Below the pieces are notes generated by a model. The model did not search any database, had not been told where the DNA came from, and saw nothing but the letters and a program-made list of their open reading frames with translations. DNA of 64,000 nt. It comes from the human T2T-CHM13v2.0 reference genome, Homo sapiens. The number at the start of each line of letters is the position of its first letter. Position 1 is the stretch's first letter. The stretch lies in the NCBI RefSeq assembly GCF_009914755.1, contig NC_060937.1. One strand, written 5' to 3'. A program made the translations under genes and the position numbers. Below, piece after piece: positions 236 through 16,200 of the stretch.

Positions 236-565
236 TTAGCAGGAAGAATAGCATCTTCTAAAGCAAAATGGCCGGTAGCCACAGTAGCCAGAGCCAGAGC
301 CACATCCACAGCCATAGCCAGTTCCATAACCACAGCCATACCCACAGCCGTAGCCAGTTCCATAGCCACAGCCAGAGCCAGAGCCATAGCCACAGCTGTA
401 GCCAGAGCCATAGCCACAGCCATAGCTGGAGCCATAGCCACAGCCATAACCAGAGCCATAGCCACAGCCATAGCTGGAGCCATAGCCACAGCCATAACCA
501 GAGCCATAGCCACAGCCATAGCTGGAGCCATAGCCACAGGAGTTGCCGTAGTAGTTGCAACACAT
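236..565 (-). CDS. KRTAP21-1-like: High glycine-tyrosine keratin-associated protein, KRTAP21-1-like (109 aa, single exon)
   Basis: [18 protein letters not shown]...(YGCGYGSG/S)n...[16 protein letters not shown]. The N- and C-termini match KRTAP21-1 as I recall it. Start context is acaacATG and a TATA box lies upstream. Confidence 0.88.
402..539. repeat. Coding tandem repeat, 48-bp unit x ~2.9 (built of 24-bp subunits)
   Basis: ccagagccatagccacagccatagctggagccatagccacagccataa repeats exactly at 402 and 450, and partially at 498. Confidence 0.9.
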
Positions 566-1362: not shown

Positions 1363-1802
1363 TTATACTTTAAGTTCTAGGGTACATGAGCACAACGTGC
1401 AAGTTTGTTGCATATGTATACATGTCCCATGTTATACCAACACCGCTGTACCCATTAACTCGTCATTTACATTAGGTATATATCCTAATCCTATCCCTCT
1501 CCCCTCTCCCCACCCCATGACAGGCCCCAGTATGTGATGTTCCCCTTCCTGTGTCCAAGTGTTCTCATTGTTCAATTCTCACCTATGAGGGAGAACATGA
1601 GGCGTTTGCTTTTTTTGTCCCTGTGATAGCTTGCTGAGAATGACGGTTTCCAGCTTCATCCATGTCCTTACAAAGGACATGAACTCATCCTTTTTATGGC
1701 TGCATAGTATTCCACAGTGTATATGTGCCACATTTTCTTAATCCAGTCTATCATTGAAGGACATTTGGGTTGGTTCCAAGTCTTTGCTATTGTGAATAGT
1801 GC
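1359..1802 (-). mobile_element. L1PA 3' end (about L1PA4-6), cut off by satellite
   Basis: ttatactttaagttctagggtacatg...gctattgtgaatagtgc is the reverse complement of the L1 3'UTR and ORF2 end. Confidence 0.9.
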
Positions 1803-1905
1803 AGGGGGGTGAGGCACCACCCGCAATGTAGGGAGTAAGAGCCAGCCCCTCTCCCCCCCCCGGCTCTTAGGACCCCCATCGCAGGGGGGCGGGTGCCCCC
1901 CGCGA
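1801..1905 (+). repeat. GC-rich SATR-related satellite, ~1.3 monomers (left terminus of the composite)
   Basis: gggagtaagagccagcccctctccccccccggctcttaggacccccatcgcagggggg, same family as 5062-12215. Confidence 0.85.
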
Positions 1906-1909
1906 TGTG

Positions 1910-4502
1910 GATGGTCATATCCAGGGGGCGATAGTGGGGTGATATTACTCCCGGATTTTTCCTAGGATCCTTTCTATACTGCCACCCTCGGTTCACACCC
2001 TGGGACACTATCTTCCATATTCTAGCAAGATGCAGCTTCTAAAGTCGCAGGGGGTATACACCCTTCAGTATTATTCGTAATTTTGCAGGGGAATGTTAAA
2101 CCTGATGTCACAGGACTCTGTACACTGTGATGTTATTCCCAATATCCTAGCTTTACCTTAATAATAATGTCACATTGTGTGTACACCTTGTGGTGTTATT
2201 CTTATTCTCCTAATGGGAGGTTGCATTTATTGTCACACGGGGTATGTTCCTTTTGATATTATCCATAATGTCCTAGAGGGATGTCACCCCTTATGTCACA
2301 GAGTTTGTACACCTTGTGAAATTACTCGTATTATCCTCATAAGATGTCACTCCTCATATCACAGAGGGTGTACACTCCGTGATATTGTCGTCATATTCTA
2401 GGGAAATGTTACTTTTAATGTCACAGAGAGTGCACAGCTTGTGAAATTATTCGTTATAATTTTGTGGGATGTTACCCCTAATGTCACATGGCGTGTACAC
2501 ACAGTGATGTTACGTGCAATATGCTATGGAAATGTTACTCGTAATTCACAGGTCCTGTACACCCTTTAATATTCTTCGTAATCTTCTAGGAAAACGTTAC
2601 TGCTAATGTCACAGGGCCTGTAGACCCTGTCATAAAATTCCTAATATCCTAGCGGGAGTTCACTACTAATTTCACAATGTGTGTACACCCTTTGATATTA
2701 TTAGTATTGTCTTGAAGAGATGTTACTACTGATGTCCCAATGCAGGTACATTCTCTGATCTTATTGGTTATATCCTCGGGGGATGTTACTTCTAATGTCA
2801 CACGGGGTGTCCTCCCTGTGTTCTATTTCGTAATATCCCACGGCAATTTCACTTTTAATGACACAGGGGGTGTACATATTTTGCTATTATTCGTGATATT
2901 CTAGAAAGATGTTACTCCTAATGTCACAGGGCTGTACACCCTGTGATAGTATTCATAATTTCCCAGGGGTCTATACTCCTATTGGAACAGACGATAACAC
3001 CCTGTGACATTGTTCATAATATTCTAGGGAGATGATACTCCTCATGTCACAGGGGGTGTACACCCCGTGTTATTATTCTTACTATTCTAGGGGGATGTTA
3101 CTCCTAATGTCACAGGGATGTACACCCTGTGATATTATTCATAGTGTGCCAGAGGGATATTAGCACTAATGTCACGATGCGTGTACACCTTGTGATATTA
3201 TTTGTCATATCCTAATGTCACAGGGGGTGTGTTCCGTGTGATAGTCTTCCTAACATCCTAGACGGATATTGCTCCTAACGTCACAGGGTGTGTACACTTT
3301 GTCACATCATTCATAATATCCTAAAACTACGTTATTCCTCAGGTCACAGGGGGTGTTCACCCTGTGATATTTTTCATCATAGTTTTGTGGGATGTTACTC
3401 CTAAAGTCACACGGGGTGTACACAGAGTCACACAGTGATATGAGTTGTAATATTCTATAGACATGTTACTTGTAAATCACAGGGGCTGTACCTCCTGTGA
3501 TATTATTCGTAATATTCTAGGGGAATGTTGTTTTTATTGTCACCGGGGTGTACACCCTGTGATATGACTCGTCATATCCCAGTGGGATGTTACTACTAAT
3601 GTCACAATGCCTGTACACCCTGTGATACTATTTGTAATATCCTAAAGAGATGTTACTACTAAGGTCACAATGCATGGACACCCTCTGATATTATTCGTTA
3701 TATCCTCGGGAGGTGTTATTCCTAATGTCACACGGGGTGTACTCCCGGTCCTATTATTGATAATATCCAAGGGGGATGTTATTTTTAATGTCACCGGGGG
3801 TGACATTATGCATTAAAAATGCGTATTCAACGCCTGTGATACTATTCCTAATATCCTAGGGGCATGCTCTTCCGAATGTCACATGGGGCGTACACCATGT
3901 GTGTACACCTGCTGTGATATTATTCATAATATCCTAGGGGAATGTTACTCCTGATGACACAGGCGGTGTACACCATGTGTGTACCCCTCCTGTGTTATTA
4001 TTCACAATATCCTAGGGGGATGTTTCTTTTAATGTCACAAAGTGTGTACAAAACGTCACAGAGGTGTACACGCTGTGACATTATCTGTAATACCCTAGAA
4101 GGGTGTTACTCCTAATGTGTCACAGGGGTGTACACGCTTTGATGTTATTTGCAATCTCATAGAGAGATATTACTTCAAATATCACAGTGGATGTACACAC
4201 ATAGTGTATACCCTGTGATAGTATTCGTAATATCCTAGGGAGATACAAATCCTGATATCACAGTGCGTGTACCCCGTGTGTGTACACCCTTGATATTAGT
4301 CGTAATATCCAGGGTAAATATTACTCCTCATATCACACAGTGTGCACACCCTGTGATATTTTTCCTCATACGTTAGGGAGATATTGCTTCTAATATGACA
4401 GTGGGTGTACCCCATCTGTGTGTACTCTGTGACAGTATATTCTATATCCTAGGGAGTATTACTCCTAATATCACTTTGGGTGTTCGCCCTGTGATATCAT
4501 TC
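1910..4502 (-). repeat. AT-rich ~63-bp palindromic satellite array (SATR1/SATR2-type, OR7E-duplicon associated)
   Basis: Recurring unit tgtacaccctgtgatattattcgtaatatcctagggggatgttactcctaatgtcacagggg in roughly 40 diverged copies. Family name from memory. Confidence 0.85.
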
Positions 4503-5062
4503 TTATTTGACCTTGCTGCCTTTGTTAACCCACACTACAAAAGGAATGGAACAGATAAGAAGATACGGAGATTGGACGGTGCTGCTGTGCGGCCGCCGCA
4601 GGACACTTTTAATATGCCTGTTTCTCAGGCTGTAGATGAAGGGGTTCAGCATGGGGTGATCACCGTGTACATCACTGAGGCCACTGCAGCCTTTCTCGGG
4701 GAAGATGACACATCTGAACTGAAGTATCCTCCAATGCCCGTTCCGTAAAATCAGCAAACAACTGACAGGTGAGACCCACAGGTGGAGAAGGCCTTATACT
4801 GCCCACGTGATGATGAAACACTCAGAATGGAGGAAACAATTTTATAGTAAGAGAAAAGGGTCCCAGAGATGGGAAGAAAACCAAATATGACAGCAGGGAA
4901 ATACATGATTATGTTATTGGTGAAGGTGTCACAACATGCAAGATGGGGGAGTTGAGAAGGGTCACAGAAGAAATTAGGAATTTCCGCATCCTGGAAGCAG
5001 GTCATTTGTAAGGCAATCAAGTTGTGCAGCTGGGCGTCTAAAACACTGAGAAAAAAAAAAAA
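4503..5062 (-). pseudogene. OR7E: Olfactory receptor family 7 subfamily E pseudogene, 3' half (end of TM4 to C-terminus)
   Basis: Translates FFLSVLDAQLHNL...IPNFFCDPSQL...FSYYKIVSSIL...YKAFSTCGSHLSVVC* (in-frame TGA at 4751-4753), then ...PMLNPFIYSLRN...VWVNKGSKVK*. These are hallmark OR motifs with the 7E-type extended tail. The 5' half is missing, cut at a poly-T run. Confidence 0.92.
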
Positions 5063-5691
5063 GGCGGGAACTGAGAGCCAGCCCCTCTTCCTCCGCTGGC
5101 TCTTAGGACCCCCATCGCAGAGGGGGAGGCACCCCCACTGAGGCAGGGACTGAGAACCAGCCCCTCTTCCCCCCTGGCTCTTAGAACCCCCATCGCAGTG
5201 GTGGGAGACAGCCTCCACGAGCCGAGGAGTGACAGCCACCCCCTCTTCCCCCCCTGACACTTGGGACCGCCATCGCAGGGTGGGGAGGCACCCGCCGAGA
5301 GGAAGGGACTCAGAGCTAGGCCCTCTTACCCCCTGGCTCTTAGGACCCCAATCGCAGGCGGGGAGGCACCCATCGAGAGGCGAGTACAGAGAGCCAGCCC
5401 CTCTTCCCCCCCGGCTCTTGGGACCCCCATCGCAGGGCGGGAGGCACCCCCCGCGAGGCGGCGACTGAGAGCGAGCCCGTCTTCCCCCCCTGGCTCTTAG
5501 GAGCCCCATCGCAGAGGCGGGAGGCACCCCCCGCGAGGAGGGGACTGAGAGCCAGCTCCTCATCCCCCCTGGCTCTTAGGACCCCCATCGCAGTGGGGGG
5601 AGGCACCTCCCGTGAGGAAGGGACTGAGAGCCAGCCCCTCGTCCCACCCTGGCTTAGGACCCCCATCGCGGATCCTAAGAACCTTAGGACC

Positions 5692-6280
5692 CACTTGGAG
5701 GACTGTGGGTATTAGGTGTCCAAGAAGAAAGCTCAAATCTGCTGACGGCAGGTACCTTACTTGGGATTTACCCTCCGACAGGGGTCCGAACTCAGCTCGG
5801 GAACAGAAAGAAAGCAGGTTATTTGCAATCTACCGGAGCCTAAGGGCAGAAGGCAGGTGAGGGAATTCTTGGGAGCTGTGGGGTTTTGTAGACTGTGGAT
5901 CCCAAACTTTGCAGTATTAGCCAAGCCCTTTTATGAGGTCACAAAGGGGGCGGGGACCGGGAACCTTTGGAAGGGGGATCCCAACAACAGCAAGTCTTTC
6001 ATGAGTTAAAGGAGAAACTTCCGGCAGCCGCAGCCCTGGGATAACCGATCTGACAAAGCCTTTTCCATTGAATGCATCAGAGAGAAAATAGATGGCAGCT
6101 GGACATTTAACCCAAAGTGTGGAGCCCTGGCTGAGGCCGGTGGCCTACGTCTCTAAACAACTAGACAGGGTTTCTAAAGGATGGCCCCCCTGTTTGAGGG
6201 CAGTGGCAGCAACTACCCTGCTAGTAGAAGACGCAAATAAGCTGACTCTTGGGCAAAACCTGAACATAAAGGCCCCCCAT
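5692..6280 (+). mobile_element. Class I ERV (HERV-E-like) pol fragment, copy 1 (RT thumb/connection)
   Basis: [41 protein letters not shown] and [25 protein letters not shown] are gammaretroviral pol motifs; frameshifted. Confidence 0.85.
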
Positions 6281-6756
6281 TTTGGGGTGGGTGAGAGCCA
6301 GCCCTTCTTACCCCCTTGCCTCTCAGGACCCCCATCGCAGGGCGGGGAGGCACCTCCCATGAGGCGGGGACTGAGAGGCAGCCCCTCTTCCCCCCTGGCT
6401 CTTGGGACCCCAATCTCGGGGGGGGAGGCACCCCCGTGAGGCGGAGACTGAGAGCCAGTCCCTCTTCCCCCCTTGGCTCTTGGGAACCCCATCGCAGGGT
6501 GGGGAGGCAACCCCCGTGATGAAGGGAAAAAAAGAGCCAGCCCCTCTTCCCCCCCTGGCTCTTAGGACCACCATCGCAGGAGGGGGAGGCACCCCCCACG
6601 GGGGAGGGACTGACAGCCATCCCCTCTTCCCCCCTGGCTCTTAGGACCCCCATTGCAGGGGGGGGAGGCACCCTCCGAGAGGCGGGGACTGAGAGCCAGC
6701 CCCTCTTCCAGCTCTGGCTTAGGACCCCCATCGCGGATCCTATGTACCTTAGGACC

Positions 6757-7345
6757 CTCCTGGAGGACTGTGGGTATAGGTGTCCAAGAAGAAAGCTCAA
6801 ATCTGCCGAAGGCAGGTACCTTACTTGGGATTTACTCTCCGACAGGTGTCAGAACGCAGCCCGGGAACAGAAAGTAAGCAGGTCATTTGCAATCTACCAG
6901 AGCCTAGGGGCGGAAGGAAGGTGAGGAAATTCTTAGGGGCTGTGGGGTTTTGTAGACTGTGCATCCCAAACTTTGCAGTATTAGCCAAGCCTTTGTATGA
7001 GGTCACAAAAGGGGCGAGGACCGGGAACCTATGGAATCGGGATCCCAACAACAGCAAGTCTTTCATGAGTTAAAGGAAAAACTTCTGGCAGCCCCAGCCC
7101 TGGGTCTACCCGATCTGACAATGTCTTTTCCATTGAATGCGTCAGATAGAGAAAAGATGGCAGCTGGACTTTTAATCCAAACTCTGGGGCCCTGGCTGAG
7201 GCCGGTGGCCTACGTCTCTAAACAACTAAAAAGGGTTTCTAAAGGATGGCCCCCCTGTTTGAGGGCAGTGGCAGCAACTGCCCTGATAGTAGAAGAAGCA
7301 AATAAGCTGACTCTTGGGCAAAACCTGAACATAAAGGCTGCCCAT
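6757..7345 (+). mobile_element. HERV-E-like pol fragment, copy 2
   Basis: [17 protein letters not shown]...LKEKLLAAPALGLPDL...[12 protein letters not shown]. Confidence 0.85.
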
Positions 7346-7423
7346 TTTGGGGTGGGTGAGAGCCAGCCCCTCTTCCCTCCCTGCCTTAGGACCCCCATCG
7401 CGGATCCTAAGATCCTTAGGACC

Positions 7424-8011
7424 CACCTGGAGGACAGTGGGTATTAGGTGTCCAAGAAGAAAGCTCAAATCTGCCGACGGCGGGTACCTTACTTGGGATT
7501 GACTATCCGACAGGGGTCCCACGCCGCCCGGGAACAGAAAGAAAGCAGGTTATTTGCAATCTACCAGAGCCTAAGGGTCGAAAGCAGGCGAGAGAATTCT
7601 CAGGAGCTGTGGGGTTTTGTAGACTGTGGATCCCAAACTTTGCAGTATAAGCCAAGCCTTTGTATGAGGTCACAAAGGGGGCGGGGACCGGGAACCTTTG
7701 GAATGGGGATCCCAACAACAGCAAGTCTTTCATGAGTTAAAGGAAAAACTTCTGGCAGCTTCAGCCCTGGGGCTACCCAATCTGACAAAGCCTTTTAGAT
7801 TGTACACGTCAGAGAGAGACAAGATGGCGGGTGGACTTTTAACCCAAACTGTGGGGCCCTGGAAGAGGCCGGTGGCCTACATCTCTAAACAACTAGACAG
7901 GGTTTCTAAAGGATGGCACCCTGTTTGGGGGCCTTGGCAGCAACTGCCCTGCTAGTACAAGAAGAAAATAAGCTGACTCTTGGGCAAAACCTGAACATAA
8001 AGGCCCCCCGT
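7424..8011 (+). mobile_element. HERV-E-like pol fragment, copy 3
   Basis: Same ~590-bp segment with the same endpoints. Confidence 0.85.
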
Positions 8012-9197
8012 TTTGTGGTGGCTGAGAGCCAGCCCCTCTTCCCCCACTGGCTCTTGGGACCCCCATCGCGTTGGGGGGGAGGCACCCTCCGCGAGGCGGG
8101 GACTGAGAGCCAGCCCCTCTTCCCCCCCTGGCTCTTGGGACCCCCATCCCAGGGGGGGAGGCACCCCCACGAGGCGGGGACTGAGAGCCAGCCCCTCATC
8201 CCCCCTTGGTTCTTGGGAACCCCATCGCAGGGGGGGATGCAACCCCCGCGACGAGAGGACAGAGAGCCAGCCCCTCTTCACCCCTGGCTCTTAGGACCCA
8301 CATCGCACCTGAGGGAGGCACCCCCGCGAGGCGGGGACTGACAGCCCCCTCTTCCCCCCCAGACTCTTGGGATCACCATCGCAGGGGCGGGAGGCACACC
8401 CCGCGAGGCGGGGACTGACAGCCAGCCCCTCTTCCCCCCCTGGCTCTTAGGACACCCACCGCAGAGGGGGGGAGGCACCCCCCGCCAGGCAGGAACTGAG
8501 AGCCAGCACCTCTTCCCCCGCTGGCTCTTAGGACCCCCATCGCAGAGCGGGAGGCACCGCCCATGAGGCAGGGACTGAGAACCAGCCCCTCTTCCCCCCT
8601 GGCTCTTAGGACCCCCATCGCAGTAGGGGGAGGCAGCCCCCGCGAGCCGAGGATTGAGAGCCAGCCCGTATTCCCCCCCTGACACTTGGGACCCCCATCG
8701 CAGGGTGGGAAGGCACCCCCCGCGAGGCGGGTACTGACAGCCAGGCCCTCTTCCCCCCCGAATCTTGGGACCCCCATCGCAGTGGGGGAGGCACCCCCGC
8801 GAAGCGGGGACTGAGAGCCAGCCCCTTTCCCCCCTTGGCTCTTGGGACGGCCATCTCAAGAGGGGGGATGCAAACCCTGCAACGAGGGGACAGAGAGACA
8901 GCCCTTCTTCACCCCCTGGCTCTTAGGACCCCCATCGCACCTGGGGAGGGCACCCCCGCGAGGCGGGGACTGAGAGCCAGCCCGTCTTCCACCCCTGGCT
9001 CTTCGGAAACCCATGGCAGCGGGGCGAGGCAGCCCCCACGAGGCGGGGACTGAGTTCCAGCCCCTCTTCACCACCTGGCTCTTAGGACCACCATCTCAGA
9101 GGCGGGAGGCACCACCCGCGAGGTGGGGACTGAGAGCCAGCCACTCTTCCCCCGCTGGCTTAGGACACCCATCGTGGATCCTAAGAACCTTAGGACC

Positions 9198-9782
9198 CAC
9201 CTGGAGGACTGTGGGTATTAGGTGTCCAGGCAGAAAGCTCAAATCTGCCGACGGCAGGTACCTTACTTGGGATTTACTATCGGACGGGGTCCGACGCCTC
9301 CCTGGAACAGAAAGAAAGCAGGTTATTTGCAATCTACCAGAGCCTAAGGGCCGAAGGCAGGCGAGAGAATTCTCAGGAGCTGTGGGGTTTTGTAGACTGT
9401 GGATCCCAAACTTTGCAGTATAAGCCAAGAGTTTGTATGATGTCACAAAGGGGGCGAGGACTGAGAACCTTTGGAAGGGGGATCCCAACAACAGCAAGTC
9501 TTTCATGAGTTAAAGGAAAAACTTCTGGCAGCTTCAGCCCTGGGGCTACCCGATCTGACAAAACCTTTTCCATTGTATGCGTCAGAGAGACAAGATGGCA
9601 GGTGGACTTTTAACCCAAACTATTGGGCCCTGGATGAGGCCGGTGGCCTACTTCTCTAAACAACTAGACAGGGTTTCTAAAGGATGGCCCCCTGATTGAG
9701 GGCCTTGGCAGCAACTGCCCTGCTAGTACAAGAAGCAAATAAGCTGACTCTTGGGCAAAACCTGAACATAAAGTCCCCCCAT
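9198..9782 (+). mobile_element. HERV-E-like pol fragment, copy 4
   Basis: Same segment, 3506 bp downstream of copy 1. Confidence 0.85.
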
Positions 9783-10256
9783 TTTGTAGTGGCTGAGAGC
9801 CAGCCCCTCTTCCCCCCCTGGCTCTTGGGACCCCATCACGTGGGGGGGGAGGCACCCTCCGCGAGGCGGGGACTGAGAGCCAGCCCCTCTTCCCCCCTGG
9901 CTCTTAGGACTCCCATCACAGTGGGGGGAGGCAGCCCCCGCGAGCCGAGGACTGAGAGCCAGCACCTATACCCCCCTGACACTTGGGACCCCCATCGCAG
10001 GGTGAGGAGGCACCCCCCGCGAGGCGGGGACTGAGAGCTAGCCCCTCTTCACCCCTGGCTCTTAGGACCCACATCGCACCTGTGGGAGGCACCCCCACGA
10101 GGCGGGGACTGAGAGACAGCCCCTCTTCCCCCCCAGACTCTTAGGATCCCCATCCCGGGGAGGGAGGCACACCCCGCGAGGCAGGGACTGAGAGCCAGCA
10201 CCTGGTCCCCCCCCTGGCTTAGGACCCCCATCGTGGATCCTATGAACTTTAGGACA

Positions 10257-10844
10257 CACCTGGAGGACTGTGGGTATAGGTGTCCAAGAAGAAAGCTCAA
10301 ATCTGCCGATGGCAGGTACCTTACTTGGGATTTACTATCCGACAGGGGTCCGAACGCACCCGGGAACAGAAAGAAAGCAGGACATTTGCAATCTACCGCA
10401 GCCTAAGGGCAGAAAGCATGTGAGGGAATTCTTAGGGGCTGTGGGATTTTGTAGACTGTGCATCCCAAACTTTGCAGTATTAGCCAAGACTTTGTATGAG
10501 ATCGCAAAGTGGGCGGGGACCGGGAACCTATGGAATCGGGATCCCAACAACAGCAAGTCTTTCTTGAGTTAAAGGAAAAACTTCTGGCAGCCCCAGCCCT
10601 GGGGCTACCTGATCTGACAAAGCCTTTTCCATTGAATGCATCAGATAGAGAAAACATGGCAGCCGGACTTTTAACTCAAACTGTGGGGCCCTGGATGAGG
10701 CCAGTGGCCTACGTCTCTAAACACCTAGACAGGGTATCTAAAGGATGGCCCCCCTGTTTGAGGGCCATGGCAGCAACTGCCCTGATAGTAGAAGAAGCAA
10801 ATAAGCTGACTCTTGGGCAAAACCTGAACATAAAGGCCACCCAT
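10257..10844 (+). mobile_element. HERV-E-like pol fragment, copy 5
   Basis: Same segment, 3500 bp downstream of copy 2 and sharing its diagnostic bases. Confidence 0.85.
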
Positions 10845-10922
10845 TTTGGGGTGGGTGAGAGCCAGCCCCTCTTCCCCCCCTGCCTTAGGACCCCCATTGC
10901 AGATACTAAGATCTTTAGGACA

Positions 10923-11511
10923 CACCTGGAGGACTGTGGGTATTAGGTGTCCAAGAAGAAAGCTCAAATCTGCCTAGGGCAGGTAACTTACTTGGGATTT
11001 CCGATCCGACAGGGGTCCGAAGCCACCCGGGAACAGAAAGAAAGCATGTTATTTGCAATCTACCAGAGCCTAAGGGCCAAAGGCAGGCGAGAGAATTCTC
11101 AGGAGCTGTGGGGTTTTGTAGACTGTGGATCCCAAACTTTGCAATATAAGCCAAGCCTTTGTATGAGGTCACAAATGGGGCGGGGACCGGGAACCTTTGG
11201 AATGGGGATCCTAACAACAGCAAGTCTTTCATGAGTTAAAGGAAAAACTTCTGGCAGCTTCAGCCCTGGGGTTACCCGATCTGACAAAACCTTTTCCATT
11301 GTATGCGTCAGAGAGAGAAAAGATGGCAGGTGGACTTTTAACCCAAACTGTGGGGCCTTGGATGAGGCCGGTGGCCTATGTCTCTGAACAACTAGACAGG
11401 GTTTCTAAAGGATGGCCCCCCTGTTTGAGGGCCTTGGCAGCAACTCCCCTGCTAGTACAAGAAGCAAATGAGCTGACTCTTGGGCAAAACCTGAACATAA
11501 AGGCCCCCCAT
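10923..11511 (+). mobile_element. HERV-E-like pol fragment, copy 6
   Basis: Same segment, ~3499 bp downstream of copy 3. Confidence 0.85.
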
Positions 11512-12250
11512 TTTGTGGTGGCTGAGAGCCAGCCTCTCTTCGCCCCCTGATTCTTGGGACTCCCATCGCGGGGGGGGGAGGCACCCTCTGTGAGGCGGGG
11601 ACTGAGAGCCAGCCCTTTTTACCCCCCTGGCTCTTTGGATCCCCATCCCAGGGCGGGAGGCACCCCCGCGAGGCAGGGACTGAGAGCCAGCCCCTCTTCC
11701 CCCCTTGGCTCTTGGGACCTCCATCGCAGGGGGGGAAGCAACCCCCGCGACGAGGGGACAGAGAGCCAGCCCCTCTTCACCCCTGGCTCTTAGGACCAAC
11801 ATCGCACCTGGGGGAGGCAACCCCGCGAGGCGGGGACTGAGTTGCAGCCCCTCTTCCCCGCCTGGCTCTTAGGATCACCATCGCAGAGGCGAGAGGAACC
11901 CCCCGCGAGGCAGGGAGTAAGAGCCAGCCCCTCATCCCCCCTGGCTCATAGGACCTCCATCACAGTGGGGGGAGGCAGCCGCCGCGCGCCGAGGACTGAG
12001 ATCCAGCCTCTCTTCCCCCCCGACACTCGGGACCCCCATCGCAGGGTGGGGAGGCACAGCCCGAGAGGCGGGGACTGAGAGCCAGCCCCTCTTTCCCCCC
12101 TGGCTCTTAGGAACCCCATCGCAGGGAGGCGAGACGCCCCCCGCGTTTCGGGGAGTAAGTGCCAACCCCTCTTCCCCCCCTGACTCTTAGGACCTCCATC
12201 GCAGGGGGGCGAGGCGTAGGCGCGCTGGTTAGGAGGGGCTGGCTCCTAAG

Positions 12251-12980
12251 ACCAGTTAGAATGGCAATCATTAAAAAGTCAGTAAACAGCGGATGCTGGA
12301 GAGGATGTGGAGAAATAGGAATGCTTTCACATTGTTGGTGGGAGTGTAAATTAGTTCAACCATTGTGGAAGACAGTGTGGCGAATCCTCAAGGATCTAGA
12401 ACAAGAAATACCATTTGATCCAGTAATCCCATTACTTCGTATATATCCAAAGGATTACGAATTATTCTACTATAAAGACACATGCACATGTATGCTTATT
12501 GCAGGACTGTTCACAATAGCAAAGCATTTGAGCCAACCCAAATGCCCATCAATGATACACTGGATAAAGAAAATGTGGTGCATATACATCATGGAATACT
12601 ATGCAGCCATAAAAAGGGTGGGTTCATGTCCTTTGCAAGGACATGGATGAAGCTGGAAACCATCATTTTCAGCAAGCTAACACAGGAACAGAAAACCAAA
12701 CACAATGTTTTCTCACTCATAAGTGGACATTGAACAGTGAGAACACATGAACACAGGGAGGGAAACATCACACACTGGGGCCTTTTGGGGGATGGGAGTC
12801 AAGGGGAGGGATAGCATTAGGACAAATACCTAATGCATGTGGGGCTTACAACCTAGATGCCGGGTTAATGGGTACAGCAAACCACCATGGCACATGTATA
12901 CCTATGTTACAAACCTGCATGATCTGCACATGTATCCCAGAACTTAAGGTAAAATTGAAAACAAAAACAAAAATAAAAAT
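12251..12980 (+). mobile_element. L1PA 3' end (about L1PA7-8) with A-rich tail
   Basis: ORF2 C-terminus [10 protein letters not shown]...[16 protein letters not shown]..., then the 3'UTR ending gaacttaaggt and an A-rich tail. Confidence 0.92.
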
Positions 12981-13244: not shown

Positions 13245-16200
13245 AGGTTGACTTTAGACATCCTGATAACTACATGCCTTGGCAATGTCTTTTTGCATTA
13301 AATCTCCCAAAAGTTCTTGGAGCTTTTTGTATCTGAATATCTAAATCTCTAGCAAGGCCACAGAAGTTTTTTCAATTATTCCCCCAAATAAATTTTTCCA
13401 ACTTTTTGCCTTCTTTTTTCCCTCAGGAATATGAGTTATTCTTAGATGTGGCCATTTTACTAATCCCCTATTTCTTGGAGACTGTGCATTTCTTTATATT
13501 CTTTTTTCTTTATTTTCTTCTGATGGGTTAATTCCAAAGCCTTGTCTTTGAGCTCTGAAATTCTTTATTTAACTTGATCTAGTCTATTGTTGGAATTTTT
13601 TACTGCATTCTGTAATTCCCTAAATGTGTCTTTCATTTCCATAAGTTCTGATATTGTTAAAATATCTAACTCTTTAGGAAGTTTTCATTCATATTCTGAA
13701 TTATTATTTTTAATTTCTTCATGTTGGTGTACACCTTTCTCTTTTATCTCATAGAGTAGTTTAATAATCAACCTTTTGCATTCTTTATCTGGTATGTCAA
13801 AGATTTCACAATGATATAGATTCATAGCTTGAGAGGTAATGTGATCTTTTGGAGGTGTTACATACATACTGTCATATTGCCAGAATTATTTTTCTGGCTC
13901 CTTCTCATTTGGGTAGACTATTTCTTCAAATTATTTTTGAATTGACTGTGTTTTTTTTTTTAATTTCTTTTTTCCCCTTAAGGATGTGACTTCCATGTTT
14001 ATAGTTAATTGTGGTGTAATTCAGCTATTGATGTTTTCAGGGGTGAAGACTGTATCAGCTCCTTGGTTATAGAGGGTCTGTGTATGTGGATTCCTCAGAT
14101 GATGGTGTATGAGCAAGTTTACTGTCTCCTATGAAGCTAGAATGGCAGAGGTCTGTTGAAGCCTATCTCATTCCCTTGTGGTTTTCACTTTATTTATTTT
14201 TCCACAGTATTTTATTTATTAGGTTGAATAGTTCAAGCTGCAGTCCAGTAGGGAAGGTGTCCCTGGGTAGAAACAAGTTGTCACTAAAGCAGGTGGGTAA
14301 ATGCAATATGCAATGATAGACAGAGGTCACAGCCTTGAGGGTGACTGAGGGATCTCCCAATGTAACACGTTGAGGTCTTATCAGAGGGAAAAGTGGGAGC
14401 CACCTCAACTCTCCTGCCAGGCCAGCAGGAAAGTGATCCATCTTATAGTTGTATTAATCCATCCTTACACTGCTATAAAGAACTACCTGAGACTGGGTAA
14501 TTCATGAAGAAAAAAGGTTTAATTGACTCACAGTTCCACAGGCTTAACAGGAAGCATGACTGTGAGGCCTCAGGAAACTTAAAATCATGGCAGAAGGTGG
14601 AAGAGATGCAAGGACCTTCTTCACAGTGGCAGCAGGAGAGAGACACAGAGAGAGAGAGAGCACAAAGGGGTAAGTGTCACACACTTTCAAACCAGATCTC
14701 ATGAGAACTCACTCACTGTCAGGAGACCACCAAGGGGGAAGTCCTCCTGTATGATTCAATCACTTCTCACCAGGCCCCTCCCCAGCATGTGAAGATTACA
14801 ATTTGAAATGAGATTTGGATGGGGATACAGAGCCAAACCATATCACAGTCATTCTCTTGGCCCAGTATTCTGGCTGTTCAGATCAGACAGGCACCTCTTA
14901 TCATCTGTAGGAATATCGAGAGGACATTCAAATAGAGAGGAATTGTTACCTTACCCCTCATGCAAGCCTGAATCTGAAGAGCACTCCTTTGGTGGTGATG
15001 CAGTCGCCTTGAAGTGTTCCAGAAAGACCGTTTACAGGTACACCCATGCTGATGTCCCATGAGAGAAGTCCCAGCCGTGTCTGTAGTGATGAATGAGTGG
15101 GAAAAGAAGTCCCCTTCTCCCAGACCTCTCACAAGTATCAGGGCTGCCTGAGTATTTGGATAGAGCTGCAGGTATTCCCCGCTGAGCCCAGCACTGCACC
15201 TATGCCTCTACTAAAAGAAACTTCCCACCGGCAGAAAAATTTTGGGACTCAAAGCCTGCCATCTGGATTGTTTTGTCCCATGGAATGTTCCTTTGATGTG
15301 GTGCATTCTTCTTTCTCTTAGGAGTAGAAAGCCCTGAGAGCTATTCTACCGTGTATGCTGCTGCTCCTCTGGGTCTAGCCGTACAGTGGGGCTGCCACAC
15401 TTCATGTGGATGCTCCGGAATGTCTGCAAGGGATCCAGTGATGTTACCTGTCCTCAAGTCTGTTTATAGTTACACCCATGCTGAGGTCCCATGAGAGAAT
15501 TCCCAGCTGTGTCTGTAGTGATGAATGAGTGGGAAAAGAAGTCCCCTTCTCCCAGACGTCTCACAAGTATCAGGGCTGCCTGACTATTTGGATAGAGCTG
15601 CAGGTACCCACAGCAGTGGGTACCAACACCAGCTCTGATGGAGGTGACAGGTTAGTGACATAGACCCTGTGAGATTCCTTGGTTATAAATAGCCTTAGTG
15701 TGTTGGATTTCTCCAATGCTGGTTGTAGTAGGAATTAACTGGTCATGTGGAAAGACTCAGGACCTCCTGGTTAGCCAGGGTGTTGAAGGCAATGATGATA
15801 GCTGAGGTTATGCACAAATTTTCTCCTTCTTGAGCACTGCATTAATCTGCCTGGAGATGACATAATGAACTGTGCCAGCTGACCTCCAGCCAGAAGATGA
15901 CAGTTGCAAAAGAGTGCCAGTTATGATGGTAACAGTGCGATTTGTGTTTGCCTTATGTTACCTAGGGAGTTATTCTGGATTCTCAAGGAATGACCAGGGA
16001 CATAGAGCTCCCAAAAGTTTCTGTCTGTTGTGGTAAACTACCAGGGCAGGCTCAGGGGCAAAGCCAGGTGGGGGCTGGATCAGATAGGTCCGTATTCTGT
16101 CTTTCCGTGCATGGGACAAGCAATAGCCCCTGTGGGGATTTGTTGATGATTCTCTGGCTGCTGGGATAATGTTCTAGGGGGAAGCAAGGCTGCCTTTGTT

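What the first reader, a model, noticed from the sequence alone, without database searches (positions are those of the whole stretch)
5062..12215. A retroviral pol fragment turned into part of a macrosatellite: 6 copies in a 2 x 3.5-kb higher-order repeat
Seen: the same ~590-bp pol segment with identical endpoints starts at 5692, 6757, 7424, 9198, 10257 and 10923. The satellite spacers measure ~476, 78, ~1186, ~474 and 78 bp. Copies 1/4, 2/5 and 3/6 are offset by 3506, 3500 and 3499 bp and share private bases: 2 and 5 have gggtatagg, gactgtgcatc and gaacctatggaatcggg; 1 and 4 have ttggaagggggatc; 3 and 6 have ttggaatggggatc. This is alphoid-like hierarchical organisation (monomer, satellite+pol unit, trimer, dimer) built from ERV coding sequence. 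Shared frameshifts imply the pol piece was already dead before amplification.
Basis: seen in the sequence. Interest (0 to 1): 0.72.

Follow-up and report, generated by a model that had tools for sequence, protein, structure and literature searches.

The report
Tandem array of dead retroviral fragments
Six broken pieces of an old retrovirus's reverse-transcriptase gene alternate with a GC-rich satellite on human chromosome 13, one of at least 13 related sites that share one founding junction and likely grew by unequal recombination; the neat two-fold higher-order repeat that was proposed does not hold.

Summary
The array is real: six ~600-bp retroviral pol pieces (RT thumb/connection) with fixed ends, separated by a 79-bp GC-rich satellite. 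The 2 x 3.5-kb higher-order repeat is not supported. The tree is (1,(2,5)),(3,4,6), and pairing 1+4 is rejected (AU p=0.0003). Only a two-copy block (2+3 to 5+6) was duplicated. Copies differ by 6-11%, so the array is old. The same unit occurs at 12 further loci on chr3, 7, 9, 12 and 13; 57 of 59 pol starts carry one linker, so it arose once. On chr3 the array still sits inside a longer element, which shows the founding state: satellite between two direct copies of a 602-bp pol stretch. The satellite is a GC-rich SATR relative. The locus is very likely the published 13q-63Mb Xiao element (SATR-HERV-E-SATR), and a 7q36.1 HERVE megasatellite, very likely the chr7 paralogue, was listed in 2008. 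New member of a known kind. The single origin and the spread into about seven unrelated flanks were not found in print.

The parts
5692..6292 (+). pol piece copy 1 (B type, earliest branch of 1,2,5)
   Evidence: 92% to single-copy L043:3280-3881
6757..7357 (+). pol piece copy 2 (B type)
7424..8023 (+). pol piece copy 3 (A type); Pfam RT_RNaseH_2 match, E 3.8e-13
9198..9794 (+). pol piece copy 4 (A type, closest to copy 3, not to copy 1)
10257..10856 (+). pol piece copy 5 (B type, sister of copy 2; 3.7% from its counterpart in the chr13:62.96 Mb array)
10923..11523 (+). pol piece copy 6 (A type); matches MLV/XMRV RT chain residues 321-423 of 4mh8_A, E 6.6e-35
5062..5669 (+). GC-rich 79-bp satellite block A1 (7 monomers + part)
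6293..6734 (+). satellite block A2 (5 monomers + part)
7358..7401 (+). 44-bp part-monomer only (B-to-A dimer joint)
8024..9174 (+). satellite block A4 (14 monomers + part), GC 69%; homologous to the 76-bp SATR-type satellite of L043
9795..10233 (+). satellite block A5 (5 monomers + part); resembles A4 and A7, not A2
10857..10900 (+). 44-bp part-monomer only (second B-to-A dimer joint)
11524..12215 (+). satellite block A7 (8 monomers + part); holds the annotated start of lncRNA LOC102723968 (minus strand, 11803)
   Evidence: gene table
9176..9197 (+). 22-bp linker (example; one precedes each of the six copies): an inverted copy of a monomer piece plus a direct piece, forming a short hairpin
6690..8340 (+). 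the block that was really duplicated (copy 2, part-monomer, copy 3, four monomers); partner at about 10190-11840
   Evidence: in-register identity 0.88-0.945 only here
1801..1905 (+). stray GC-rich monomer at the outer edge of the satellite block
1900..4520 (.). AT-richer 63-bp satellite (GC 41%), distant relative of the 79-mer; SATR-type by context
4531..5061 (-). OR7E104P fragment, ending at a short A-run where the array begins; 99.6% identical to the flank of the chr13:62.96 Mb array
   Evidence: gene table
6748..11803 (-). four in-window exons of lncRNA LOC102723968, antisense to copies 2, 3, 4 and 6; donors in copies 3 and 4 lie on the linker-pol junction
   Evidence: gene table

Best explanation
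This is an old, degenerate tandem array of a two-part unit (a GC-rich SATR-related satellite plus a dead ~600-bp piece of retroviral pol, HERV-E by the literature) that likely arose once by an error-prone repair or template-switch event and likely grew by unequal crossing over. Step 1 (end state shown, event inferred): a SATR block came to lie between two direct copies of a 602-bp pol stretch in a Xiao-type HERV-E. The chr3 array still has viral sequence running in on the left and out on the right. The right joint has 4 bp of microhomology and the left joint a short inverted templated linker, marks typical of polymerase-theta or microhomology-mediated repair. Step 2 (inferred): recombination between the direct repeats and between monomers multiplied the unit, changed spacer lengths in 79-bp steps and made shorter variants. 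Step 3 (flanks shown, route inferred): stretches of the array were copied at the DNA level to other sites, losing the viral flanks and, in the chr13/chr7 branch, the AT-richer satellite part. Step 4 (from the tree): here the order B B A A B A is best explained by separate duplications: an early B/A split, a B duplication, a duplication of the B-A dimer, and an A duplication. The 3.5-kb beat of copies 1 and 4 follows from two spacers both holding five monomers. No protein function is possible. A side effect is an antisense lncRNA that uses splice donors at the repeated junction.
For: Tree and AU tests. In-register identity is raised only at 6650-8340; 20 in-register monomer pairs average 0.831 against 0.811 +/- 0.042 for 721 others. 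A5 monomers best-match A4 (0.92) and A7 (0.89) rather than their supposed partner A2 (0.85). 13 loci hold the unit. 57 of 59 pol starts have the linker; the 2 without are the in-place viral copies. L037 is continuous with L043 upstream (92%) and downstream (93%), and 0 of the other 12 sources hold those flanks. Junction sequences. The B-A dimer with the 66-bp joint recurs in L031, L032 and L033, so it predates the spread on chr13. The window's six copies are not one clade among 39 (AU p=0.00026). 14 of 14 monomers of A4 align to the SATR-type satellite at z 4.8-8.5. Literature: SES = SATR-HERVE-SATR and a 13q-63Mb Xiao; 7q36.1 HERVE megasatellite.
Against: Copies at other chr13 loci are mosaics of A and B diagnostic sites, so conversion occurred and a bifurcating tree is only approximate. 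The order within 3,4,6 is unresolved (3+4 support 60/66). A1.1-A1.3 match A4.7-A4.9 (0.94, 0.91, 0.86) at offset 3425, one monomer off the 3.5-kb register, which fits a larger old duplication. The first chr3 copy lacks the codon-8 stop that L043 and most copies have, so the founding event may have joined two different proviral copies rather than duplicated one. The HERV-E name rests on papers, not on a Dfam run. No ape or population data could be examined.
Confidence: 0.8

Rival explanations
1. A true trimer (copies 1-3) was duplicated as one 3.5-kb block, and copy 4 with its downstream monomers was later overwritten by gene conversion from copy 3.
For: Offsets 3506/3500/3499 and matching spacers 464/462 and 66/66; 2+5 supported and 3+6 not rejected; A1.1-3 resemble A4.7-9 at offset 3425; conversion mosaics exist at other chr13 loci.
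Against: The tract would have to cover all of copy 4 and block A5 (about 1.05 of the 1.07-kb unit) and leave 1 supporting site against 12. Spacers come in 79-bp steps, and five-monomer blocks recur in L032, L037 and L039. The nearest paralogue L031 has B A B A without a copy 1 or 4. The monomer types of A4.8-9 also recur in A5 and A7.
Confidence: 0.12
2. The cassette spread through an RNA intermediate, like an SVA element (GC-rich VNTR plus retroviral piece) mobilised by L1.
For: SVA-like make-up; antisense transcripts start in the satellite here and, by the gene table, near it at OR7E156P; an A-run lies at the left edge.
Against: 0 of 8 edge pairs show a target-site duplication above shuffles (best 17/300), and no right edge has a poly-A tail; chr7 arrays begin and end in mid-pol. 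The A-run is at the wrong end for a tail of either strand of the array. No spliced copies were seen among the 13 loci.
Confidence: 0.04
3. The array is kept or amplified by selection as a regulatory element (CpG-rich antisense promoter and exons of LOC102723968 and OR7E156P).
For: 4 of 4 in-window exons have GT donors and 3 of 3 internal exons AG acceptors; CpG 4.95 per 100 bp in A4; the promoter is one row in a differential-methylation table.
Against: Copies have drifted further from the single-copy relatives (p 0.09) than those have from each other (0.049-0.065), the opposite of constraint; copy number and spacers differ at every locus.
Confidence: 0.04

Closest known systems
HERVE megasatellite at 7q36.1 (Warburton et al. 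2008, PMC2588610, Table 2D: 10.1 kb, 1.7-kb unit, 5 copies, CNV +, SD; passages seen)
   Same: Very likely the chr7:151.2 Mb paralogue L035, which has 5 full pol pieces plus a part in 9.9 kb and the same linker; same class of TE-fragment megasatellite ascribed to unequal crossing over.
   Different: The match is by band, size and copy number, not by lift-over. The passages seen list only the chr7 array and give no anatomy, origin or paralogues.
Xiao/DA composite elements and their SES flank (SATR-HERVE-SATR) (Li et al. 2009, PMC2700803, parts 1 and 3 of 4 and passages seen; Mohajeri et al. 2016, PMC5088589, passages)
   Same: A 13q-63Mb Xiao is listed; OR7E pseudogene and SATR-type satellite adjoin the array; L043-L045 are single-copy elements of this kind, and 3p-8 and 13q-45.9 Xiaos correspond by position to L037 and L032.
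   Different: Here only a 602-bp piece of the HERV-E is left, amplified with GC-rich satellite; 9 of the 13 loci showed neither OR7E nor proviral flanks in the 9.9 kb fetched.
MaLR (MSTA/THE1) LTR arrays with six-monomer HORs on chr13, 18, 21 (Warburton 2008, passages)
   Same: Tandem arrays built from retroelement fragments, including internal sequence, dispersed to many loci.
   Different: Those have real HORs and 3.5-kb monomers in arrays up to 80 kb; this array is 7 kb with variable units and no HOR. So 'HOR from ERV sequence' would not have been new even if true.
SATR1 variant, SATR1v (Hoyt et al., 10.1101/2021.07.12.451456, passages; macaque T2T preprint PMC12466775, section 7)
   Same: A GC-rich variant of SATR1 found in mixed arrays with SATR1, as in L037.
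ajax/teucer TELO_Comp arrays on chr7 (Hoyt et al., passages)
   Same: Same design: a variable satellite block bounded by a duplicated sequence, arrayed as a composite unit.
   Different: 49-bp satellite, other loci, no retroviral piece reported in the passages seen; a different family.

Membership tests
Alphoid-type higher-order repeat | HOR copies much more alike than the monomers within them | tested here: not met
   3.5-kb diagonal 87.6% against 87.8-91.0% for off-register pairs; in-register monomers 0.831 against 0.811
Alphoid-type higher-order repeat | Units at the same position cluster in a tree | tested here: not met
   1+4 rejected p=0.0003; 2+5 met; 3+6 inconclusive p=0.27
Alphoid-type higher-order repeat | Copy number varies in whole HOR units | not testable with these tools
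   no population or ape assemblies available
TE-fragment megasatellite (Warburton 2008 class D) | Tandem repeating pattern of a retroelement fragment, three or more copies | tested here: met
   six copies, same strand, fixed ends
TE-fragment megasatellite (Warburton 2008 class D) | Regular unit length and high identity | tested here: inconclusive
   units 0.67-1.77 kb, copies 89-94% identical; the listed class spans more than 87% to more than 99%
Xiao/DA element | OR7E core next to SATR satellite | tested here: met
   OR7E104P and 63-bp satellite adjoin (gene table); locus listed as 13q-63Mb Xiao
Xiao/DA element | Intact SATR-HERVE-SATR flank | tested here: not met
   no match in the 64-kb window to the proviral sequence up- or downstream of the piece; a degenerate derivative
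Xiao/DA element | Target-site duplication at the outer ends | not tested
   outer ends of the whole element lie beyond the stretches examined; array edges show none
HERV-E pol | Gammaretrovirus-like RT | tested here: met
   best PDB hits are MLV/XMRV RT, E 1e-33 to 1e-39; foamy virus and Ty3 far weaker
HERV-E pol | Dfam/Repbase HERVE match, LTR2 and tRNA-Glu primer site (features recalled) | not testable with these tools
   no Dfam; name taken
SATR1/SATR1v satellite | Homology to the ~76-bp satellite flanking Xiao HERV-E | tested here: met
   14 of 14 monomers z 4.8-8.5, about 61-72% identity; GC steps from 0.41-0.55 to 0.65-0.70 within one L037 spacer
SATR1/SATR1v satellite | Match to the deposited SATR1v model | not testable with these tools
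   supplements not held
SVA-like retrotransposon | Poly-A tail and target-site duplication | tested here: not met
   0 of 8 edge pairs

The most novel reading that the evidence does not exclude
The satellite-plus-pol cassette is a self-standing mini-duplicon. Born once inside a Xiao HERV-E, it left its host element and was pasted at the DNA level, without LTRs, tail or target duplication, into about seven unrelated contexts on five chromosomes, with the GC-rich SATR variant acting as the break and template-switch seed. That would make it a small, countable model for why SATR marks the breakpoints of Xiao/DA core duplicons, and a repeated source of antisense lncRNA exons.
Probability: 0.35. Interest if true: 0.5.

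Novelty: new member of a known kind. Interest (0 to 1): 0.27.

Why it matters
As a single array it matters little: a dead viral piece in a known unstable duplication family, with a likely sister array catalogued in 2008. The family view is of more use. One junction tags about 57 copies at 13 loci, so the order of spread of a duplicon seed can be read directly, and the chr3 locus preserves the founding state. SATR blocks mark Xiao/DA breakpoints tied to 8p23.1 rearrangements, so how a SATR variant gets copied around is an open and testable question. The arrays are also unmasked in NCBI's file (gene table), so they can confound read mapping and lncRNA or methylation calls at LOC102723968 and OR7E156P.

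Tried and rejected
ajax/teucer as the identity: a 49-bp satellite at other loci, rejected. GC-biased gene conversion inside the array as the cause of the GC-rich monomer: window pol copies show 34 W-to-S against 70 S-to-W changes, and the unamplified flanks 121 against 152, so there is no GC drive in the pol pieces; the GC-rich monomer also occurs at chr4, chr9:140.3 Mb and chr11 sites that gave no satellite-pol junction hit, so it likely predates the unit. L031's A copy as a clean 3/4 chimera: matches to copy 3 and copy 4 are interleaved, rejected. Special hairpin stability of the monomer: z -0.9 and -1.6, not notable; only the linker stretch reached -2.65 (2 of 200 shuffles). Retrotransposition marks: none. 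Pfam found 2 of 6 open stretches; one PDB query was off-frame and gave nothing. The 'shorter by 2 near 601' rows come from my cutting the B copies two bases early and were ignored. The 39-copy tree left out 12 of 50 pieces that were short or split by an internal repeat. No earlier findings were seen. Ji and Zhao 2008 and the Science version of Hoyt et al. with its supplements were not held; either may describe this composite.
Full report
1. Observation. Six pol pieces lie at 5692-6292, 6757-7357, 7424-8023, 9198-9794, 10257-10856 and 10923-11523, all on the + strand, separated by 464, 66, 1174, 462 and 66 bp. The spacers are built of a 79-bp GC-rich monomer (7, 5, 0, 14, 5, 0 and 8 full monomers in the seven blocks), a 44-bp part-monomer and a 22-bp linker. 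The offsets 3506, 3500 and 3499 are as reported. The piece encodes part of a gammaretrovirus-like reverse transcriptase. Natural open stretches match Pfam RT_RNaseH_2 (2 of 6 stretches sent) and MLV/XMRV RT (copy 6: E 6.6e-35). The single-copy relative L043 matches chain residues 237-325 in one frame and 316-421 in another. This is the thumb and connection region, downstream of the catalytic motif (domain names recalled).

2. The higher-order repeat fails its own test. Pairwise distances are 1/4 0.095, 2/5 0.075, 3/6 0.069, 3/4 0.061 and 4/6 0.069, and the tree is (1,(2,5)),(3,4,6) with the main split at 100/99. AU tests reject 1+4 (p=0.0003), accept 2+5 (96/94) and leave 3+6 open (p=0.27). 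The 3.5-kb diagonal is 87.6% identical, not above off-register pairs. Along it, identity is 0.76-0.85 in the satellite before and after copy 1, ordinary (0.89-0.90) in copy 1, and raised (0.88-0.945) only from about 6650 to 8340. The monomers after copy 4 resemble those after copies 3 and 6, not those after copy 1. So the duplicated block is the B-A dimer (copies 2+3 to 5+6), and copy 4 came with its monomers from an A-type neighbour. Conversion mosaics at other chr13 loci also keep an HOR-then-conversion rival alive at low odds.

3. It is a family. A search of the own genome (best 40 candidates scored, so a lower bound) found the unit at chr13:62.96, 45.68, 44.6 and 79.93 Mb, chr7:151.2 and 155.2 Mb, chr3:8.67 Mb, chr12:9.39 and 31.0 Mb and three chr9 sites. 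Ten of these 13 loci hold 2-6 pieces over 100 bp, and the three chr9 loci hold one each. More than 20 other hits cover the pol piece alone; three were fetched (L043-L045) and are single-copy elements without GC-rich monomers, L043 flanked on both sides by a 76-bp AT-richer satellite. In a tree of 39 full pieces (38 of 50 array pieces plus L043), chr13+chr7 copies form one clade (100/94), and chr7, chr9 and chr12 copies each form their own. The window's six are not a clade (AU p=0.00026). Copies 5 and 6 pair with counterparts in the inverted array 100 kb upstream (3.7% and 2.6%).

4. Origin. 57 of 59 pol starts carry the same linker; the 2 without it are the in-place viral copies in L037 and L043 (the motif test allowed 3 mismatches, and the printed rows show near identity). 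In L037 viral sequence runs into the first piece (92% to L043 over 1.9 kb) and out of the last (93% over 1.2 kb); none of the other 12 sources, the whole window included, has these flanks. The founding state is therefore pol-satellite-pol with a 602-bp direct repeat. At the right joint, pol and monomer share 4 bases (GACT). At the left joint the linker is an inverted copy of an 11-base monomer word followed by a direct piece, and it folds as a short hairpin. Microhomology with a short templated inverted insert is the usual mark of polymerase-theta end joining or microhomology-mediated template switching (own knowledge; inference). Whether one provirus was duplicated locally or two copies were joined is open, because the first chr3 piece lacks the codon-8 stop found in 50 of 61 starts. 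Later microhomology deletions made shorter units on chr7 and chr12.

5. The satellite. All 14 full monomers of block A4 align to the L043 satellite at z 4.8-8.5 against shuffles; mismatches are 223 weak-to-strong against 53 strong-to-weak; GC is 69% against 45%. In L037 each spacer still holds about 650 bp of the AT-richer form followed by the GC-rich form; the chr13 and chr7 arrays have lost the AT-richer part. GC-biased conversion inside the array is not supported.

6. Dead before amplification, and old. A frame switch near segment position 280-310 is in L043, and no window copy differs from L043 in length there; L044 and L045 show a similar frame pattern. Copies 1, 3, 4 and 6 also have an early stop, and 2 and 5 are one base shorter at that place. 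Non-CpG distances between window copies are 0.046-0.088 for the 8 pairs computed, several times the roughly 1% human-chimpanzee distance (recalled), so all internal duplications likely predate that split. Li et al. place Xiao's origin at 25-18 Myr and found the 13q-63Mb locus in chimpanzee but not in rhesus or the orangutan draft. Array copies on chr13, 7 and 9 are further from the single-copy elements (0.082-0.092) than those are from each other (0.049-0.065), so a clock would overestimate ages.

7. Spread. After masking, flanks (0.5-3 kb seen) group the 13 loci into seven unrelated contexts: window+L031+L032, L033, L034, L035+L036, L037, L038+L039 and L040-L042. No target-site duplication stood above shuffles in 8 of 8 edge pairs, no right edge has a tail, and the chr7 arrays start and end in mid-pol. 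DNA-level copying is the likely route; longer flanks were not examined.

8. Transcription. LOC102723968 starts in the last satellite block and runs antisense. 4 of 4 in-window exons end in GT, 3 of 3 internal ones start after AG, and the donors in copies 3 and 4 straddle the linker-pol junction, where L043 has a different sequence. This looks like a by-product; I found no sign of constraint.

9. Known or new. Warburton et al. 2008 list a 7q36.1 HERVE megasatellite (10.1 kb, 1.7-kb unit, 5 copies) and MaLR arrays with true HORs (passages and table rows). Li et al. 2009 define SES and list the 13q-63Mb Xiao (parts 1 and 3 of 4 and passages). Mohajeri et al. 2016 map breakpoints to SATR1/2 of Xiao (passages). 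Also seen: Hoyt et al. preprint (passages), a CTCF preprint (passages), the macaque T2T preprint (section 7 and passages), Aguado et al. 2014 (passages), an FTLD methylome paper (one table passage) and an OR7E156P glioma paper (one passage). Nine full-text searches found no description of this chr13 array, the shared junction or the 13-locus family. Ji and Zhao 2008 and the supplements of Hoyt et al. were not held and may cover it.

10. Verdict. Real array, wrong hierarchy, known kind. Interest 0.27. The most novel reading left open, a self-standing mini-duplicon seeded by a SATR variant, has probability about 0.35.

Noticed in passing
window 3557-5669 against L031 (chr13:62.96 Mb): The flank is 98-99.6% identical to the inverted paralogue and the match stops inside the first satellite block, while the array beyond is at best 96-97%: recent homogenisation ends at the array. 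By gene name, L031 (OR7E156P) lies inside the polymorphic inversion HsInv0340, so its orientation may differ between haplotypes.
   Followed up: partly
window 1877-5061 against L032:669-3851: The satellite-plus-OR7E block is inverted relative to the array at chr13:45.68 Mb (96%), with a GC-rich monomer at the hinge.
   Followed up: no
L032:4532-5229 and 5700-6399: Two pol pieces carry the same internal ~100-bp tandem repeat (segment 159-258).
   Followed up: no
L035 and L036 (chr7:151.2 and 155.2 Mb): Arrays with extra short units (about 76 bp of pol) that begin and end in mid-pol; flanks 97% identical to each other.
   Followed up: partly
L034:3320 and 7280: Both flanks look like parts of one L1 (recalled resemblance), with no target duplication, as if the array was captured at a break with a deletion.
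   Followed up: no
window 236-565 (minus strand): LOC647264: a short reading frame made of a 12-bp repeat (21 copies, 286-539), annotated as a keratin-associated protein (gene table).
   Followed up: no
window 1363-1800 and 12249-12954: Two L1-like 3' fragments in opposite orientation (78% alike) bound the whole satellite-OR7E-array block; the right joint has a short inverted monomer piece.
   Followed up: no
window 15024-15174 and 15456-15606: A 151-bp direct repeat, 94% identical, 432 bp apart, at LOC105377815.
   Followed up: no
G000 C4:8.93, 9.49, 9.76 Mb; C11:71.5 Mb; C9:140.35 Mb: Runs of the GC-rich 79-mer at sites that gave no satellite-pol junction hit.
   Followed up: no
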